DNA of 64,000 bases, taken from assembly GCA_010015805.1 (NCBI GenBank), contig ML978123.1, positions 1,736,001-1,800,000 on the forward strand. Direction: 5' to 3'. Source of the DNA: Rhizodiscina lignyota (lineage: Eukaryota). Made by a program: the position numbers and the translations under genes. A model generated the notes under the pieces. That model did not search any database. It had not been told where the DNA came from and saw only the letters and a list, made by a program, of their open reading frames with translations. Shown here in pieces: positions 28,471-37,227 of this stretch (position 1 is its first letter; every line of letters starts with the position of its first letter).

Positions 28471-29521
28471 ATGGACTCGGCTACAGGCCGGGTCCGCACC
28501 GTCCCTCGTGAGTACTCTGGTCGCCAGATGTGCGCAAATATAAGGAATCAAAGCTAATGAGGACGCGTAGCTTGGGTTGCGGACGCGGAGGAAGCGGATG
28601 AAGGAGAATTATTGCTACCCAGGCCACCACAATCCTCTATATCGCCCTCTCACCATTACCTACCATCACCGAAACATAACGCTGCGCCTGGAAGACACTT
28701 CGACTACTTACGTGAAAACGAGCCTGTCGTACAATCGGAACCCCTCGCTCATGGCGCGTCGAGATGGGCCGATTTCGCGCAGCCGTTCGCAGGAGAGGGC
28801 CAGCAGCGAAGTACCGTAGCAGACGAGCAATGGTGGGATGCGAATATGCCGGATTATGAAGACCCCTCCCACGTCGGACACGAGGAAGAGAAAGGGGAGC
28901 CTGGCTTCTGGTTATTCGTTCCAGAGAAGAGGACGAGGATGCGGAAGAAGATTAGGGTACAACCTTTGACCTCATCCTCATCATTTTCGCGATGTCTGCT
29001 AATTAGAAGTGCAGAGAACTATGATGATGAACCCGTTCATCCCTCTCACTATTCGCACCATCGTCCTAACATTTTCCTGTCTTGCATTGGGCCTCGCGGC
29101 AAACATCTGGTTGCGAGTAGGCAGGGTCACCGACTGCCAGCCTGGGACCGCAATCTACTTGGCCATCATCGTTGATGTCGTTGCAATCCTCTACACATTC
29201 TACATCATGTACGACGAATACACATCAAAGCCGCTGGGCTTGCGCTCGCCAAGAGCAAAGATGCGTCTGATCTTCCTGGATCTGTTCTTCATAGTCTTTG
29301 ACTCTGCAAACCTGAGTCTGGCGTTTCAGCATCTTACAGATCCTGGATGGGCATGCCAGAATGGCAATCCTCTGGATACCGACGAGTGTCCACAAAATGA
29401 CACTATTTGCGCGAGGCAGAAGGCACTCTCTGGAACGCTGCTGATCGCTCTGGTGGCATGGCTCGTGACCTTTTCAATCAGTATGTTCAGACTCATGGAA
29501 AGAGTTGCCGGAAAGAGATGA
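28471..29521 (+). CDS. SRF1: Regulator of phospholipase D Srf1-like membrane protein
   Basis: RVRTVP|PWV start. C-terminal TM region YDEYTSKPLGLRSPRAKMRLIFLDLFFIVFDSANLSLAF...ICARQKAL; 2 introns. Confidence 0.75.
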
Positions 29522-29868
29522 TGTATATCGGTATTGGATGATACCCAAAGACACACAGCATTCCGCCGGCGCCACACACGACGTTGCAAGTGGTCTATCC
29601 ACATTCTAACCTCTTCGACTCTCCTCGACATCTCGTGTCCATTCTGAGCAAGCTGGGTTTTAGTCTCACGTTGCTCACATCTGCTCGGCAGGCTTGGCCT
29701 AGATGATCCAGCCCCTGCAGCTGTGAACCTCTCGTGGAGGCCGGGGAAAGCGTCTTACCGCTGTGGAACGTCGTACAGCACGGCGCTCAGTCAATCATTG
29801 CGGGGATATTCTAATAGTCTCATATGTGTATCTCAGCCCTCCACCAACTCATGAGTTGGTCATTGGCA

Positions 29869-31029
29869 TCAGCCGTTACGGAACAGAAAGCTATACGCAC
29901 TGAGCGCCGGCACGCCTCCGAGATGAGCGTATAGCACCTTGGAGCCTTTTTGAAGCTCCCCTTTAAGGATCATTTCTATCATGCCATGCATAGACTTTCC
30001 CTCGTATACTGGGTCTGTCAACATGCCCTCCTGGCGAGCGCACAATCTAATAGCTTCCAATGTCCCCTCGTTCGGTATGCCGTACTCAGGTCCCCCAAAG
30101 CGTTCATCTAGGATGACGTCGTCTGCAGTGATGTCGCGATCCAGTTCTACTAATTTGGCGGTAGATTGTGCAATCTCTAATACTTGAGCGTGCGTCTGCG
30201 CAGGCTTGGCCGAAGCATCCACACCGATCACACGACGTTCGCGGCCGTCGGCGGCGAAACCAACAACCATTCCAGCCTGATCAATACATTAATATCCGAT
30301 ATACTTCTCAAAACATGTTTGATATCGTACCTGCGTGCTCCCCGTCACGGCACAGACCACGATGTAGTCGAATTTGAACCCAAGCTCCGCTTCCTGCTGT
30401 CGAACCTCTTCCGCGAATCCAACGAAGCCTAGGCCTCCTTTTGGGTGCACTGAGCATCCAGCTGGAATCGGAAACGGTTTGCCTCCCGCTTGCTCGACCT
30501 CATCTAATGCATCTTGCCAGCTCTTGCGAATGCCAATGTCAAAGCCGGCCTCATCAAGTCGCACATCAGCGCCCATGATCCTCGACAATTGAATGTTGCC
30601 AACGCGATCATAAACGGCGTCGCTGTAATTCACCCAGTCCTCTTGCACCAGAACGCATTTTAGTCCCAAGTGAGCCGCTACCGCAGCGACCTGTCTCGTC
30701 TGGTTTGACTGAATTCCGCCAATCGAGACTAAGGTGTCGTATCCTCCTTCCAATGCATCCGGGATGAGATACTCTAGCTTTCTTGTCTTGTTGCCACCGA
30801 ATGCAAGCCCACTGTTGCAGTCCTCCCTCTTGGCGTATATATCGACATTGCCGCCAAGATGCTTGGAAAGGCGTGGAAGAGGCACAATTGGCGTGGGACC
30901 AAAAGTCAATTGCTGTCGAGGGAATTTGCTGAGGTTGAGCGTATGGGCAGATCGACGGCTTAAGCATGCCAGGGACGCTCGGTGTGACATGAGCGGAAGT
31001 CTCCGCTGAAGGTGGTGCATGGCATGCAT
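29869..31029 (-). CDS. acdS: 1-aminocyclopropane-1-carboxylate (ACC) deaminase, proteobacterial type
   Basis: [22 protein letters not shown] (PLP Lys), [32 protein letters not shown] and YAHLGG (the E295/L322 equivalents diagnostic of true AcdS), C-terminus YSFLFRNG. One 54-nt intron at 30277-30330. Confidence 0.96.
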
Positions 31030-31852
31030 GGTGAACGTTATAAGCTGTGCTACGTTGTGGCGCCCAGAAAGAAATACGAGATCTTAGTTCATGAGTTTCA
31101 CAGGTTTCCCCCTCAGAGATTGAAGCTAAGGACCTAGAAGCTCTGGAGAATGAGAGGTTGTCACAGTTGGAGATTAAGTTATGTAACGGGGTAAGATGTG
31201 AAATTTCCGAAGCTCAGCATATGTATCCGATTAGCTACATGATTTGCCAGGTACGTGTCAAGTCGTCACTAAATCAATGTCGTACTGCACAACGTGTGGG
31301 GTAAGATGGTTCTGTACCTTCATAAGGTACGAGATCTTCGCGATCAAGGGATACAGTCCGAGCTGCGACTGGTTGACGTCGAAGTTCGTCGTTAAGGAGC
31401 TGCCCAGCGAGCTCCGAAAGCGGCATTGGCCCCCCTCCCCAACGTCAGTGTCTTCATGAATCCATACCTATTTATTTTCTGCGCATATCCTTTAATCCAC
31501 GAAATATCCGCATATCCTACCGTGTATGGGCCGTCGCTCAGCTTGCTCCGCTCTGTCCTCGAGCTCATCGTCATAGCGTGATGAAGGAAAGCCACAGTAG
31601 GCATAATGTCACGAACTTAATCTTCTCAGCCAATTCTCGTATTCCGTTGCACAAACTCCAAGGACTGCAAAATGAGTTGCATCTTTCCTTCCTGTAATTG
31701 TCTAGTCAGAGGAGGATGCCTCTTCAGCTCTTGGGCTCAGTCCGCCTACATATAAAGAGCACGCTTCCAATTCTGAATGCTCATCTCAAGCAGCTCGGAC
31801 TATCCTCTCGCTCCAAGTGCAAATTCAGATCGTCTGCGTTCTTCCTCTCAAT

Positions 31853-32673
31853 ATGAAGTCTCTCACTGTGGTCCTTCTTGCTGTCGCAGCTCCTTTCGTC
31901 GCAGCCCAAAACAGGCCCAATGTCAGACAAAGCTTGCCGTTCACGAGCGTTGTGACAGGCCCTTGGTTCTATTCCGCTTCTCCTTCCCAAAGCCTCTCGG
32001 GAACGAAAGTTTATGCAAGAGGCGGAAAGCTCCACTTGAGCAACAGGACCACTGCGGACGTCTCGCCCAGTTGCCGCACCTGCGTCAGAGACACGGTTAT
32101 TTTTGTAGATGGCCAGACCAGCAATGCCTATCTCGTAAGTGCATTCGTCAAGGGTGAAGAACTAGGATCTGATACATGTTCTAGGACTCCGCCAGCCCGC
32201 AGGACAATCAGCTGTACATCGATCCGATCACGTTTGTCCTTTCGTACACCACCAAAAGCAAGGGCCTGCCACGCGGCGCCATCACCAACAATTTCATTCG
32301 CGTGGGAGACAACCCGAGAGGCCAAACAGTCTCTCCAGCCAGTTGCGATGGCTGCGGTTTGAATCAAGCACCAGCGATGTCAGTAGTTCGAGTCATTCAC
32401 GCTTTCATGCCAACTAACGATACACAGGTGGGGTTGGCCGGAGCAGAGCTACATCAACAGCTTCTACGCCTGCCCAGATGACGCTCCTCGCACCACATCA
32501 TGGACTGTAAGTCCCATCCTGGGATCCCTAATGTCACCACTAACCTTGTACGGCAGCTTTATCAGAGAATCTTGTACTACTCGGCCACGGTCCCGGAAAA
32601 CAACTGCACATATGTGCAGCTTGCTGCCTTGAACTGGCGGGGCAGCAATCCTGCCGTGACTCGGTACAACTGA
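31853..32673 (+). CDS. Small secreted Cys-containing protein (loosely resembles fungal PhiA / 'IgE-binding' cell-wall proteins), 3 introns
   Basis: Signal peptide MKSLTVVLLAVAAPFVAA; TATAAA ~100 bp upstream; spliced product has QLYIDP...LSYT, FYACP, NCTYVQL. Family assignment is tentative. Confidence 0.65.
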
Positions 32674-33742: not shown

Positions 33743-35285
<1,543 letters not shown>

Positions 35286-37227
35286 GGTGAAGATGGTTGA
35301 CGCGATCCGTGAACGCAGAGAGAGATAGTGGTAGGTTGGTGTGTGGTCGTAGTGGGGTAGGTGAGCGCCGCAAGCTTGTTCGCGGCCGGTTTCTATGTGA
35401 AAAGTCGCTAGTGGAAGTTGCACGCGGCACGGAGGGGGCAAAGTCGATGCGCGTTCGAAGCGGTGAGTGCTCCGCGGCGGCGACGACGAAGTGGTCGATT
35501 GGGAGAAGGTTGAATATGAGTGTGGGGAGGCGAGGAAACAAGCGCAGCTGGCACTTTCGGCTTCGTGTGTTGTGGAGAGCAGGCCCGCCCAGGAAACAAG
35601 TGTGGCGTCGGACAGCCACACGTGGAATTGAGCACCGACGGTTGGCTGGGCGCGAAAATAAAGCTAGATTTCGAGGATCACTACGACTCTGTTGTTCCTG
35701 GCGGAAGACAACGGGAGGCACTGAAAAGGAAAAGGCACGCTGCGCTGGATGCGACATCCTCTGTCATCGACGATCCGCGATCGAAGCACACCATGGCTGA
35801 TCAGCAAACCTGTTACTGTTTGCGCGCGGAGCCATGCAAAAGCACCTTCAATTCGAAAGACAACGCCCGGGCATCAATCCTCCAACTCTCCTCTACGCAG
35901 AACCAACTGCTCTCGGGACTATTGAAAGGCCTGGCGCCATCTTGCCATGAGGCGCTCAGCATTCGCCGATACGTCATCGCTGCATTGGCCATGGACAATT
36001 CATTTCTCCCATCCACTCGTCGGGCAGTAGCAGCGACTCGTTTAACCCCCAATGCTTGCCGGGAAGGGCCAATATGGGAACTGCCAGCATACTGTCAAGA
36101 TTGACAAGCTGGACGAGCTCGCAAGAGCGCTCAATTGGCTGGGTATTGCAGCCGCAGGAAACAACTCCGTTTGCTCGTGGCCGTTGAGCACGGCGGTCAC
36201 ATGGTATGCTGTGTACCATGTTCCATAAGCGACGCTGCCAAACTGCCGAACGATTCTTATATTTACGCAGAGGCATTCCATTCACCGGCACAATACTTCG
36301 AATCACTTCACGCCGGACAGTTTGTTCACATGCTCGGATACACGCCGGACATGGGAGAGTTGCGACAGGCTACGCTCAGCGAAGAGCAAAAGCAATTTGA
36401 AACCGGGCCAGCACCTGTTTGGAGGGTCAAAGGCCATTCAAACGACTGATACCATAGTTGAGATCCAGTGTCGAAGTCGGTCGTGTGATCGTACCCATGA
36501 TAGAGAGCTCTCGCTTGCTTGGACGCGGGTAAGCTTTGCGGTGGGATGGGCTGAGGACGGGAGCAGCACGAAGATCGGGGAGAAAGGTCACGGAACTGCC
36601 GACCAAGCAGACTACTGTCGATTGTAGGTATTTCTGGCGCTGATTGCCTACGGAGCCCTTGAAGAGCTGGATGACTCGGATCCAACGCGAAGTGCGCAGC
36701 ACAAAAAGGGCGCCGGCCGCCAGCTTTAAATTCTTTCGGACCTGACGGCTAAATCGAGCTGCACCATTTCCTTTTTCGTTGTATAAGCTGGCGCGGGAAT
36801 AATCAGACAATGGCGCACTGCGAATGATTAAGCGCGCGATCTGGACTCTGTTCTTGCCGAGCATTCCAGCAGCGCGCTGCGGCTTTGTCTTGACTGAAAC
36901 AAAGCTTGTCGCCGACAAACAAGTGCAAATGCAAATGGCATGATGGCATGTAGCACACCCAACTGGGCGCGCCGCCACGGCAAGCCCGACAAGGTGCGTG
37001 GGAGATTCAAGCGCCGGCCGAATGAGGTGAGGCGAGAGGCCAAGGAGGGCGAAGGAATGGAGCGGTAGTTACGTGAGGCTGCTGAATCAAGCATTGCAAG
37101 AATCTTCTTCTCCCTGCCTCTGCAATAAAATTAAACAGCCACGGAGGGACGAAGAATGGTGGAGCGCGCTTGGAGCCGGCACGAGGAATCCCGCAAGCAG
37201 CGGGCAGATCCGCCTGAGCAGTGGTGA

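What the first reader, a model, noticed from the sequence alone, without database searches (positions are those of the whole stretch)
29869..31029. Proteobacterial-type ACC deaminase domesticated in a fungal genome
Seen: from NLSKFPR to YSFLFRNG the protein follows, nearly residue for residue by my recollection, Pseudomonas/Burkholderia AcdS ([40 protein letters not shown], the YSFLFRNG end). It carries one AT-rich 54-nt GT-AG intron with an in-frame stop and sits between ordinary fungal genes, with no Lrp-type acdR neighbour. Known: AcdS degrades the plant ethylene precursor ACC, and bacteria-to-fungus acdS transfers have been described. Inference: horizontal acquisition followed by intron gain, giving this fungus a way to modulate plant ethylene or use ACC as nitrogen.
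Basis: partly seen in the sequence, partly recalled or inferred. Interest (0 to 1): 0.8.

Follow-up and report, generated by a model that had tools for sequence, protein, structure and literature searches.

The report
Bacterial-type ACC deaminase gene in a fungus
This wood-dwelling fungus carries an intact gene of bacterial ancestry for the enzyme that breaks down the plant's ethylene precursor ACC, a kind of bacteria-to-fungus gene transfer that was already described in 2014.

Summary
On the minus strand, 31029..29869, lies a two-exon gene (exon 1 31029-30331, a 54-nt GT..AG intron 30330-30277, exon 2 30276-29872, then the stop). It encodes a true ACC deaminase. The public model P0003 scores 632.5 bits on TIGR01274 (cut-off 392). 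It aligns without gaps to the solved Pseudomonas enzyme, and K51, S78, Y294, E295 and L322 are all kept. The protein is already annotated in NCBI as ACC deaminase of Rhizodiscina lignyota (Dothideomycetes).

Its nearest full-length relatives are Comamonadaceae (Variovorax, Acidovorax; 84-85% identity). The classic fungal type (Aspergillus) is 56% identical and falls in the outgroup. The transfer is old: GC3 is 0.56 against 0.94 in Variovorax, and third codon positions are only 40% identical.

The gene is not private to this fungus. Two unnamed fungal contigs share the intron site and a conserved N-terminal extension.

Trees cannot tell whether this lineage shares its origin with the bacterial-type copies of other Dothideomycetes (Aulographum, Saccharata, Aureobasidium); AU p is 0.25 and 0.14.

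Proteobacterial-type acdS in Dothideomycetes, and intron gain after transfer, are in print (PMC4048297, PMC8227670, PMC11708051).

New here are small points: a likely mis-set start codon, a lineage-specific intron, and a presequence-like extension that may send the enzyme to mitochondria.

The parts
30331..31029 (-). acdS exon 1, 233 codons counted from the first ATG (P0001)
   Evidence: Translation. Pfam PALP and TIGR01274 positions 1-202.
30940..31029 (-). N-terminal extension of 30 codons upstream of the position of the bacterial Met1, which is Leu here. It is presequence-like: 5 Arg, 5 His, no Asp or Glu.
   Evidence: Gapless alignment to 1rqx_A starts at P0003 residue 18. The extension is conserved in P0004 and P0005. 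Composition.
30988..30990 (-). ATG used by the public 355-aa model P0003 (Met14 of the long form). It has C at -3, and the aligned residue is Val in both relatives.
31027..31029 (-). First in-frame ATG, in the context CACCATG (A at -3). This is the likelier start and gives 368 aa.
30787..30789 (-). Codon of the PLP-binding lysine (K51 of the Pseudomonas enzyme, residue 81 of the 368-aa form)
30277..30330 (-). Spliceosomal intron, 54 nt, phase 0, GT..AG, 30% G+C, with an in-frame stop if retained
   Evidence: P0004 and P0005 are interrupted at the same site.
29869..30276 (-). acdS exon 2 (135 codons, P0002) plus the stop codon 29871..29869. Holds Y294, E295 and L322.
29003..29521 (+). Neighbouring ORF, part of a gene also spanning about 28561-29175. 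It is SRF1-like by language-model features only and is not part of acdS.
   Evidence: (no Pfam hit).
33850..35300 (-). Neighbouring Hog1/p38-type MAP kinase gene in several exons (approximate bounds). It gives the fungal context and is not part of acdS.

Best explanation
[quoted passage not shown] It descends from a beta/gamma-proteobacterial acdS, most like those of Burkholderiales/Comamonadaceae. It entered an ancestor of this Dothideomycete lineage long ago.

Since then the gene has:
- lost the bacterial Lrp-type regulator;
- taken on host codon usage;
- gained one phase-0 intron after the codon for Gln of the TGSTQ motif;
- replaced the bacterial start codon with a conserved extension of about 30 residues.

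By inference from the conserved active site, the enzyme opens the cyclopropane ring of ACC on PLP bound to K51 and releases alpha-ketobutyrate and ammonia. This would let a wood- and plant-associated fungus use ACC as a nitrogen source, lower plant ethylene, or both.

The extension has the make-up of a mitochondrial presequence. I put about 45% on it delivering the enzyme to the matrix. There alpha-ketobutyrate is the substrate of isoleucine synthesis (established yeast biochemistry, recalled).

Whether this copy stems from the same transfer as the bacterial-type acdS of other Dothideomycetes is unresolved.

Shown: gene structure, family membership, bacterial affinity, amelioration, and the intron and extension shared with two relatives. 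Inferred: enzyme activity, splicing, start codon, localisation and ecological role.
For: Family membership:
- TIGR01274 equivalog scores 632.5 bits against a cut-off of 392.
- The alignment to 1rqx_A is gapless over 338 residues at 616 bits, with K51, S78, Y294, E295 and L322 kept. PMC4048297 names these residues as the marks of true AcdS.

Nearest relatives:
- In a search of 5.8 billion proteins, only P0003 itself and two intron-bearing fragments (P0004, P0005) rank above the bacteria.
- The best named bacteria are Acidovorax and Variovorax, at 83-85%.

Tree (52 rows, LG+C20+F+G4):
- The Rhizodiscina clade has support 100/100 and sits inside a beta/gamma-proteobacterial group (98/90).
- The Aspergillus-type AcdS P0299 is in the outgroup.

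Old residence in the fungus:
- GC3 is 0.56, within the 0.45-0.72 of host gene pieces, against 0.94 in Variovorax.
- Third-position identity is 0.40 while positions 1+2 are 0.88 identical.
- There is an intron and there are fungal flanks. The public protein's record lists one contig, 3.24 Mb long, and one 81-kb contig covers the region without a single difference.

N-terminal extension:
- Bacterial Met1 is Leu or Ile in all three relatives.
- The block RLPR.SH.A..SRR[S/Y]AHT is conserved upstream.
- It has no acidic residue in 24-31 positions.
Against: - No RNA run was available, so splicing and expression are not shown.
- No enzyme assay exists for this protein.
- The hydrophobic moment of the extension is not above that of shuffled sequences (0.05 to 0.53 of shuffles reach it). 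The mitochondrial reading therefore rests on composition and on a cleavage motif recalled from memory.
- The donor cannot be named. The backbone of the 35-row group is a polytomy, and identities to Pseudomonas, Paraburkholderia and Variovorax differ by only 4-5 points.
Confidence: 0.85

Rival explanations
1. Separate, lineage-specific transfer. The Rhizodiscina-type acdS would come from its own beta-proteobacterial donor, independently of the bacterial-type acdS clade of Aureobasidium, Aulographum and Saccharata. It would either have replaced that copy or have arrived where that copy was lost.
For: - In the ML tree the two fungal clades are not sisters.
- Aulographum hederae belongs to the same order, yet it groups with the other fungal clade at 98/87 and is only 77% identical over the 196-residue exon-1 query. 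Bacteria reach 84-87% in that same search.
- The Rhizodiscina clade has no indel against bacteria at the [11 protein letters not shown] loop. P0208, P0209, P0263 and the P0201 group all carry insertions there.
- Intron sites differ. Prokaryote-style calls in the P0203 and Aureobasidium clusters show none at TGSTQ (P0254, P0268), and P0253, P0255 and P0256 have one after YEGKS instead.
Against: - AU tests do not reject one fungal clade (dlnL 3.67, p 0.249). They also do not reject Rhizodiscina clade plus Aulographum (dlnL 10.68, p 0.141).
- Aulographum is a long branch (0.75), so its placement is unsure.
- Rhizodiscina and Aulographum share 4 otherwise rare residues, against 0-2 for seven comparators. 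Both also carry an acid-free N-terminal extension.
Confidence: 0.4
2. Member of the classic, vertically inherited fungal AcdS clade (the Penicillium/Aspergillus/Trichoderma type), with no bacterial transfer involved.
For: PMC4048297 argues that most fungal acdS genes are vertically inherited (abstract and passages).
Against: - The Aspergillus sclerotioniger representative P0299 is 56% identical, against 84-85% for Comamonadaceae.
- In the tree it is separated from the window's protein by branches with support 94/76, 96/86 and 100/96.
Confidence: 0.02
3. Bacterial contamination or a chimeric assembly, not a fungal gene.
For: The protein is 84-85% identical to soil Comamonadaceae.
Against: - There is a GT..AG intron with an in-frame stop.
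- There is no ATG at the bacterial start.
- GC3 is 0.56 against 0.94 in Variovorax.
- The flanks are Hog1 and fungal transcription factors.
- A single Logan contig of 81 kb at word depth 155 spans 29000-32500 with no differences. That run may be the source sample, so it is not independent evidence.
Confidence: 0.01
4. The gene is decaying, or has shifted to another PLP beta-family activity such as D-cysteine desulfhydrase or D-cysteate sulfo-lyase.
For: There is no expression data. The sister families score too: CuyA 315 bits and D-cysteine desulfhydrase 231 bits.
Against: - Both of those scores are below their cut-offs (450 and 429), while TIGR01274 is far above its own.
- E295 and L322 are kept. 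Changing them turns AcdS into a D-cysteine desulfhydrase (PMC4048297, passage).
- The reading frame is open over 368 codons.
- Exon 1 is 89% identical to P0004 and P0005.
Confidence: 0.05

Closest known systems
Proteobacterial AcdS (Pseudomonas sp. ACP, PDB 1rqx/1tyz; Variovorax and Acidovorax AcdS)
   Same: - The 338-residue core is the same length, with no indel.
- Identity is 80-85%.
- All five diagnostic residues are kept.
- TIGR01274 is matched over its full length.
   Different: - The window's gene has a spliceosomal intron.
- A 30-residue N-terminal extension stands in place of Met1.
- There is no divergent Lrp/AsnC acdR. One is present in Variovorax locus L015.
- GC3 is 0.56 instead of 0.65-0.94 in all but one of the 12 bacterial loci compared (Tatumella L028: 0.46).
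Bacterial-type acdS of other Dothideomycetes (Aureobasidium pullulans P0263, Aulographum hederae P0208, Saccharata proteae P0209; reported for Aureobasidium, Macrophomina and Guignardia in PMC4048297)
   Same: - Same class of fungi.
- Same beta/gamma-proteobacterial affinity.
- Same kind of event, as described by Nascimento 2014 and Bruto 2014.
- Aulographum also has an acid-free N-terminal extension.
   Different: - 77-78% identity over the 196-residue exon-1 query.
- They form a separate clade in the ML tree (98/88). The separation is not significant by AU test.
- They carry insertions in the WVNY loop.
- Where it can be read, they have no intron at the TGSTQ site.
Classic fungal AcdS (Aspergillus sclerotioniger P0299; Penicillium citrinum and Trichoderma asperellum enzymes, named in PMC4048297)
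   Same: Same enzyme family. P0299 scores 524 bits on TIGR01274.
   Different: Only 56% identical. It lies in the outgroup of the tree and has a different evolutionary origin.
Yeast ACC deaminase of Cyberlindnera (Hansenula) saturnus, PDB 1f2d
   Same: A eukaryotic ACC deaminase that is itself thought to be of proteobacterial origin (PMC4048297). It matches at 457 bits.
   Different: The match is weaker than to the Pseudomonas enzyme (616 bits). It has a 3-residue insertion in the WV loop and a 2-residue deletion.

Membership tests
ACC deaminase AcdS (TIGR01274, EC 3.5.99.7) | Full-length match to the equivalog model above its curated cut-off, and better than to the sister families | tested here: met
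   632.5 bits against a cut-off of 392. CuyA (315 against 450) and D-cysteine desulfhydrase (231 against 429) fall below their own cut-offs.
ACC deaminase AcdS (TIGR01274, EC 3.5.99.7) | PLP-binding Lys51, together with Ser78 and Tyr294 | tested here: met
   The gapless alignment to 1rqx_A shows GGNK, IQSNQ and DPVYEG unchanged. The residue list is from PMC4048297.
ACC deaminase AcdS (TIGR01274, EC 3.5.99.7) | Glu295 and Leu322, which separate AcdS from D-cysteine desulfhydrase | tested here: met
   Both are kept. Their role is described in PMC4048297.
ACC deaminase AcdS (TIGR01274, EC 3.5.99.7) | Releases alpha-ketobutyrate and ammonia from ACC | not testable with these tools
   Needs an enzyme assay.
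Bacteria-derived eukaryotic acdS (the class described by Bruto 2014 and Nascimento 2014) | Nested among bacterial AcdS in a phylogeny, apart from the classic fungal clade | tested here: met
   the protein lies inside a 35-row beta/gamma group (98/90), and Aspergillus P0299 is in the outgroup.
Bacteria-derived eukaryotic acdS (the class described by Bruto 2014 and Nascimento 2014) | True residence in the eukaryotic genome: intron, host codon usage and eukaryotic flanks | tested here: met
Proteobacterial acdR-acdS module | A divergently transcribed Lrp/AsnC regulator next to acdS | tested here: not met
   Variovorax L015 has one (AsnC_trans_reg 1.7e-17). The ORFs beside the fungal gene have no such domain. 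The gene is therefore not a member of this module and must be regulated by fungal means.
Mitochondrial matrix presequence | N-terminal, rich in Arg, Ser and Thr, without acidic residues | tested here: met
   0 Asp/Glu and 4-5 Arg/Lys in 24-31 residues in the window, P0004, P0005 and P0208. The chance of having no acidic residue at the mature part's frequency is 0.015-0.038 each.
Mitochondrial matrix presequence | Amphipathic helix | tested here: inconclusive
   The maximum hydrophobic moment of 0.55-0.79 is reached by 5-53% of shuffles.
Mitochondrial matrix presequence | Import into mitochondria and cleavage by the processing peptidase | not testable with these tools
   No targeting predictor is on hand. 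The Arg at -2/-3 before Ala-His-Thr fits a motif recalled from memory only.

The most novel reading that the evidence does not exclude
The Rhizodiscina-type acdS would be a second, independent beta-proteobacterial transfer into Dothideomycetes. After arrival it would have been refitted with a mitochondrial presequence and an intron. In that case a bacterial plant-hormone-degrading enzyme would feed alpha-ketobutyrate directly into mitochondrial isoleucine or propionyl-CoA metabolism. No such compartmentation came up in the one literature search made (1 paper, an unrelated review).
Probability: 0.18. Interest if true: 0.45.

Novelty: new member of a known kind. Interest (0 to 1): 0.27.

Why it matters
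The locus adds one more, unusually bacteria-like, example to a documented series of acdS transfers from bacteria to filamentous eukaryotes. It is a clean illustration of the steps by which a bacterial gene is fitted to a fungal genome:
- loss of the Lrp regulator;
- codon amelioration;
- intron gain;
- a new N-terminus.

Two practical points follow. The public gene model probably starts 13 codons too late. The conserved presequence-like extension gives a cheap, testable hypothesis about where fungi place this enzyme. The finding does not open a new question in ethylene biology or in gene-transfer research.

Tried and rejected
RNA evidence for splicing
- The look-up of sequencing runs listed no RNA holder.
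- The one run laid (X1, kind unknown, Logan contigs) gave a single unspliced 81-kb contig. It may be the source sample.

The fungus's own genome
- It is not held. A second acdS copy, or synteny in relatives, could not be looked for.

Bruto et al. 2014
- The paper is not held by DOI or by PMC id. It is known here only through passages of PMC8227670.

Supplement of PMC11708051
- It lists Rhizodiscina lignyota among the 829 genomes, with 99 HGT genes.
- The stored file is cut. The 7 aminocyclopropane rows held are all Streptomyces-type and none belongs to this genome.
- Whether that study already lists this gene is therefore unknown.

Reaching other fungal AcdS
- A profile search of P0003, P0001 and the exon-1 parts of P0004 and P0005 brought only bacteria after the three clade members.
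- A search restricted to proteins of 344 residues or more found Aulographum and Saccharata.

Shared-residue counts between the two fungal clades
- 1 column was found, against 0-3 in controls. This is uninformative.

Hydrophobic moment of the extension
- It is not above shuffles.

Earlier findings of this scan
- Nothing relevant.

Not run
- No structure prediction: an 84%-identical solved structure exists.
- No complex prediction.

Full report
Observation

The minus strand between 31029 and 29869 carries a two-exon gene.
- Exon 1 (31029..30331) gives 233 residues from the first in-frame ATG.
- Exon 2 (30276..29872) gives 135 residues and is followed by a stop at 29871..29869.
- Between them lie 54 nt that begin with GT and end with AG. 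They have 30% G+C against 54% in the exons. Read through, they give 13 residues and a stop.
- Joined by coordinates, the frame is open for 368 codons.

What it is

Each exon alone matches Pfam PALP and the two halves of TIGR01274, positions 1-202 and 203-336. The public spliced model P0003 scores 632.5 bits on this equivalog model, whose cut-off is 392. The sister families stay below their own cut-offs: D-cysteate sulfo-lyase scores 315 against 450, and D-cysteine desulfhydrase 231 against 429.

P0003 residues 18-355 align without a single gap to residues 1-338 of the solved Pseudomonas sp. ACP enzyme (1rqx_A, 616 bits). The yeast enzyme 1f2d scores 457 bits and needs two indels. In that alignment K51, S78, Y294, E295 and L322 are unchanged. 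Nascimento et al. 2014 (PMC4048297, passages read) use these residues to tell true AcdS from D-cysteine desulfhydrase. They report that the E295S/L322T change abolishes ACC deaminase activity. I therefore file the protein as an ACC deaminase; its activity is inferred, not shown.

Whose gene it is

The identical protein is in NCBI as '1-aminocyclopropane-1-carboxylate deaminase [Rhizodiscina lignyota]'; its record lists one contig, 3.24 Mb long. Rhizodiscina is a Dothideomycete of the order Aulographales.

The window around the gene is fungal:
- two Fungal_trans transcription factors, an MFS transporter and a G-alpha subunit;
- a multi-exon MAP kinase on the minus strand at about 33850-35300, with a TGY activation loop, whose best solved relatives are p38 kinases, i.e. 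Hog1-type;
- an ORF at 29003-29521 with no Pfam hit, whose nearest ESM Atlas clusters include an SRF1 family (0.92, a lead only).

A Logan contig of 81 kb spans 29000-32500 without any difference. It may come from the same sample, so it only shows that an independent assembly of reads does not break at the gene.

Contamination is excluded by the intron, by the absence of an ATG at the bacterial start, and by codon usage.

Bacterial ancestry

Among 5.8 billion proteins, only P0003 itself and two unnamed fragments (P0004, P0005) rank above the bacteria. This held both for exon 1 and for a profile of the clade. The next hits are Comamonadaceae and other Burkholderiales (Acidovorax cavernicola, Variovorax spp., Piscinibacter, Pseudorhodoferax) at 83-84% over the full length.

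Against named genomes, identity is 84.6% to Variovorax sp. tm, 82.8% to Pseudomonas maioricensis and 80.8% to Paraburkholderia kururiensis. The classic fungal type is 56% identical; it is represented by P0299, which a cluster look-up names as Aspergillus sclerotioniger AcdS.

I built a careful ML tree of 52 rows (LG+C20+F+G4; 346 of 482 columns kept; P0004 and P0005 cut at the exon end, P0220 at a frameshifted tail). It puts P0003+P0004+P0005 together at 100/100. That clade lies inside a 35-row group of beta- and gamma-proteobacterial AcdS (98/90). P0299 and three other distant representatives form the outgroup. The backbone of the 35-row group is unresolved, so no donor genus can be named.

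Age and fitting to the host

The core of the gene has GC3 0.56. This is within the range of host gene pieces in the window (0.45-0.72) and far from Variovorax (0.93-0.94). Against Variovorax, codon positions 1+2 are 88% identical and position 3 only 40%. The transfer is therefore old and the protein is under strong purifying selection.

The Variovorax locus L015 has the expected divergent Lrp/AsnC gene upstream of acdS. The fungal gene has none.

The intron is shared. P0004 and P0005 are prokaryote-style gene calls that run on past the same Gln of TGSTQ into unrelated residues beginning with Val (the GT), and then stop. So at least three fungi have a phase-0 intron at this site, with diverged intron sequence.

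Other fungal lineages differ. Cluster members of the P0203 group and of Aureobasidium read straight through this site (P0254, P0268). Three members (P0253, P0255, P0256) break after YEGKS instead. This agrees with the report, relayed by PMC8227670, that introns of eukaryotic acdS are not conserved between lineages.

The N-terminus

The residue aligned with the bacterial Met1 is Leu in the window and Ile or Leu in the relatives. Translation therefore must start upstream.

The public model starts at the ATG at 30990. That Met is Val in both relatives, and the ATG has C at -3. Conservation continues upstream of it (RLPR, SH, A, SRR[S/Y]AHT). The first ATG, at 31029, has CACCATG. I therefore think the protein is 368 residues long and the public model is 13 residues short. 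This is an inference.

The extension has no acidic residue and 4-5 Arg in 24-31 positions in the window, P0004 and P0005. The same holds for the otherwise dissimilar extension of Aulographum P0208. Saccharata, Aureobasidium and the P0201 group start at the bacterial position.

This make-up, with an Arg two or three residues before Ala-His-Thr, is what I recall of matrix-targeting presequences. The hydrophobic moment is not above shuffles, and no predictor was on hand. I give the mitochondrial reading about 45%. It would make metabolic sense, because alpha-ketobutyrate is used by mitochondrial isoleucine synthesis in yeast (recalled). One literature search for ACC deaminase, mitochondrial targeting and fungal found 1 paper, an unrelated review.

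One transfer or two

A search limited to proteins of 344 residues or more brought in the named Dothideomycete proteins of Aulographum hederae (77%) and Saccharata proteae (78%). A cluster look-up identified P0216/P0263 as Aureobasidium pullulans.

In the tree these proteins and the unnamed P0201 group form a second fungal clade (98/88). It is not sister to the Rhizodiscina clade, even though Aulographum is of the same order.

Two AU tests bear on this:
- Holding all 9 fungal rows together costs 3.67 lnL (p 0.249).
- Holding the Rhizodiscina clade with Aulographum costs 10.68 lnL (p 0.141).

Neither arrangement is rejected, and Aulographum is a long branch. Counts of shared rare residues are weak. 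They give 1 column for all fungi against 0-3 in controls. Rhizodiscina and Aulographum share 4 such columns, against 0-2 for seven comparators.

I leave the question open, with about 40% for a separate transfer.

Comparison with what is known

Nascimento et al. 2014 list proteobacterial-type acdS in the Dothideomycetes Aureobasidium pullulans, Macrophomina phaseolina and Guignardia citricarpa. They list it also in yeasts, two Agaricomycetes and oomycetes, and attribute it to transfer from bacteria.

Bruto et al. 2014 is not held here. As summarised in PMC8227670, it found 65 eukaryotic acdS, with Actinobacteria, Beta- and Gammaproteobacteria as donors and with lineage-specific introns.

A 2024 survey of 829 fungal genomes includes this genome. 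It mentions nine AcdS genes of actinobacterial and betaproteobacterial origin, and finds introns in 44% of transferred genes (PMC11708051). The stored supplement is cut, so I could not see whether this gene is among them.

The finding is thus a new member of a known kind.

Verdict

Bacterial origin, intron gain and loss of acdR are right. The gene is not new, not recent and not private to this fungus. Interest is low to moderate.

Noticed in passing
window 30988-31029 (minus strand): The public 355-aa model of this protein seems to start 13 codons too late. The first ATG (31029) has A at -3, and the residues between the two ATGs are conserved in two related fungal contigs, where the model's Met is Val.
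   Followed up: partly
window about 33850-35300 (minus strand): A Hog1/p38-type MAP kinase gene in at least six exons, with the TGY loop. Its coding pieces have GC3 of about 0.70-0.72, higher than acdS (0.56).
   Followed up: partly
proteins P0253, P0255, P0256 (unnamed cluster of P0203): In this other fungal acdS lineage, prokaryote-style gene calls break after YEGKS and run into a shared unrelated tail. This points to an intron at a different site from the one in the window.
   Followed up: partly
proteins P0263 and P0268 (Aureobasidium cluster): Members of one 90% cluster differ in the WVNY loop. P0263 has a 5-residue acidic insertion and P0268 has the bacterial length. The loop seems to gain insertions repeatedly in fungal acdS; the yeast enzyme 1f2d has one too.
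   Followed up: no
proteins P0149 and P0206 (NCBI, unnamed): Two actinobacterial-type AcdS-like proteins carry an internal tandem duplication of about 40-170 residues of the N-terminal half. This could be an assembly artefact or a real duplication.
   Followed up: no
proteins P0037, P0040, P0044, P0045, P0061 and others: Many bacterial acdS gene calls carry a conserved upstream peptide (MP.VFASIDAWTP...). It looks like an over-extended start across a conserved acdS leader or promoter region in Burkholderiales.
   Followed up: no
supplement of PMC11708051: That survey credits Rhizodiscina lignyota with 99 prokaryote-derived genes and its order-mate Aulographum hederae with 31. This is a threefold difference within one order.
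   Followed up: no
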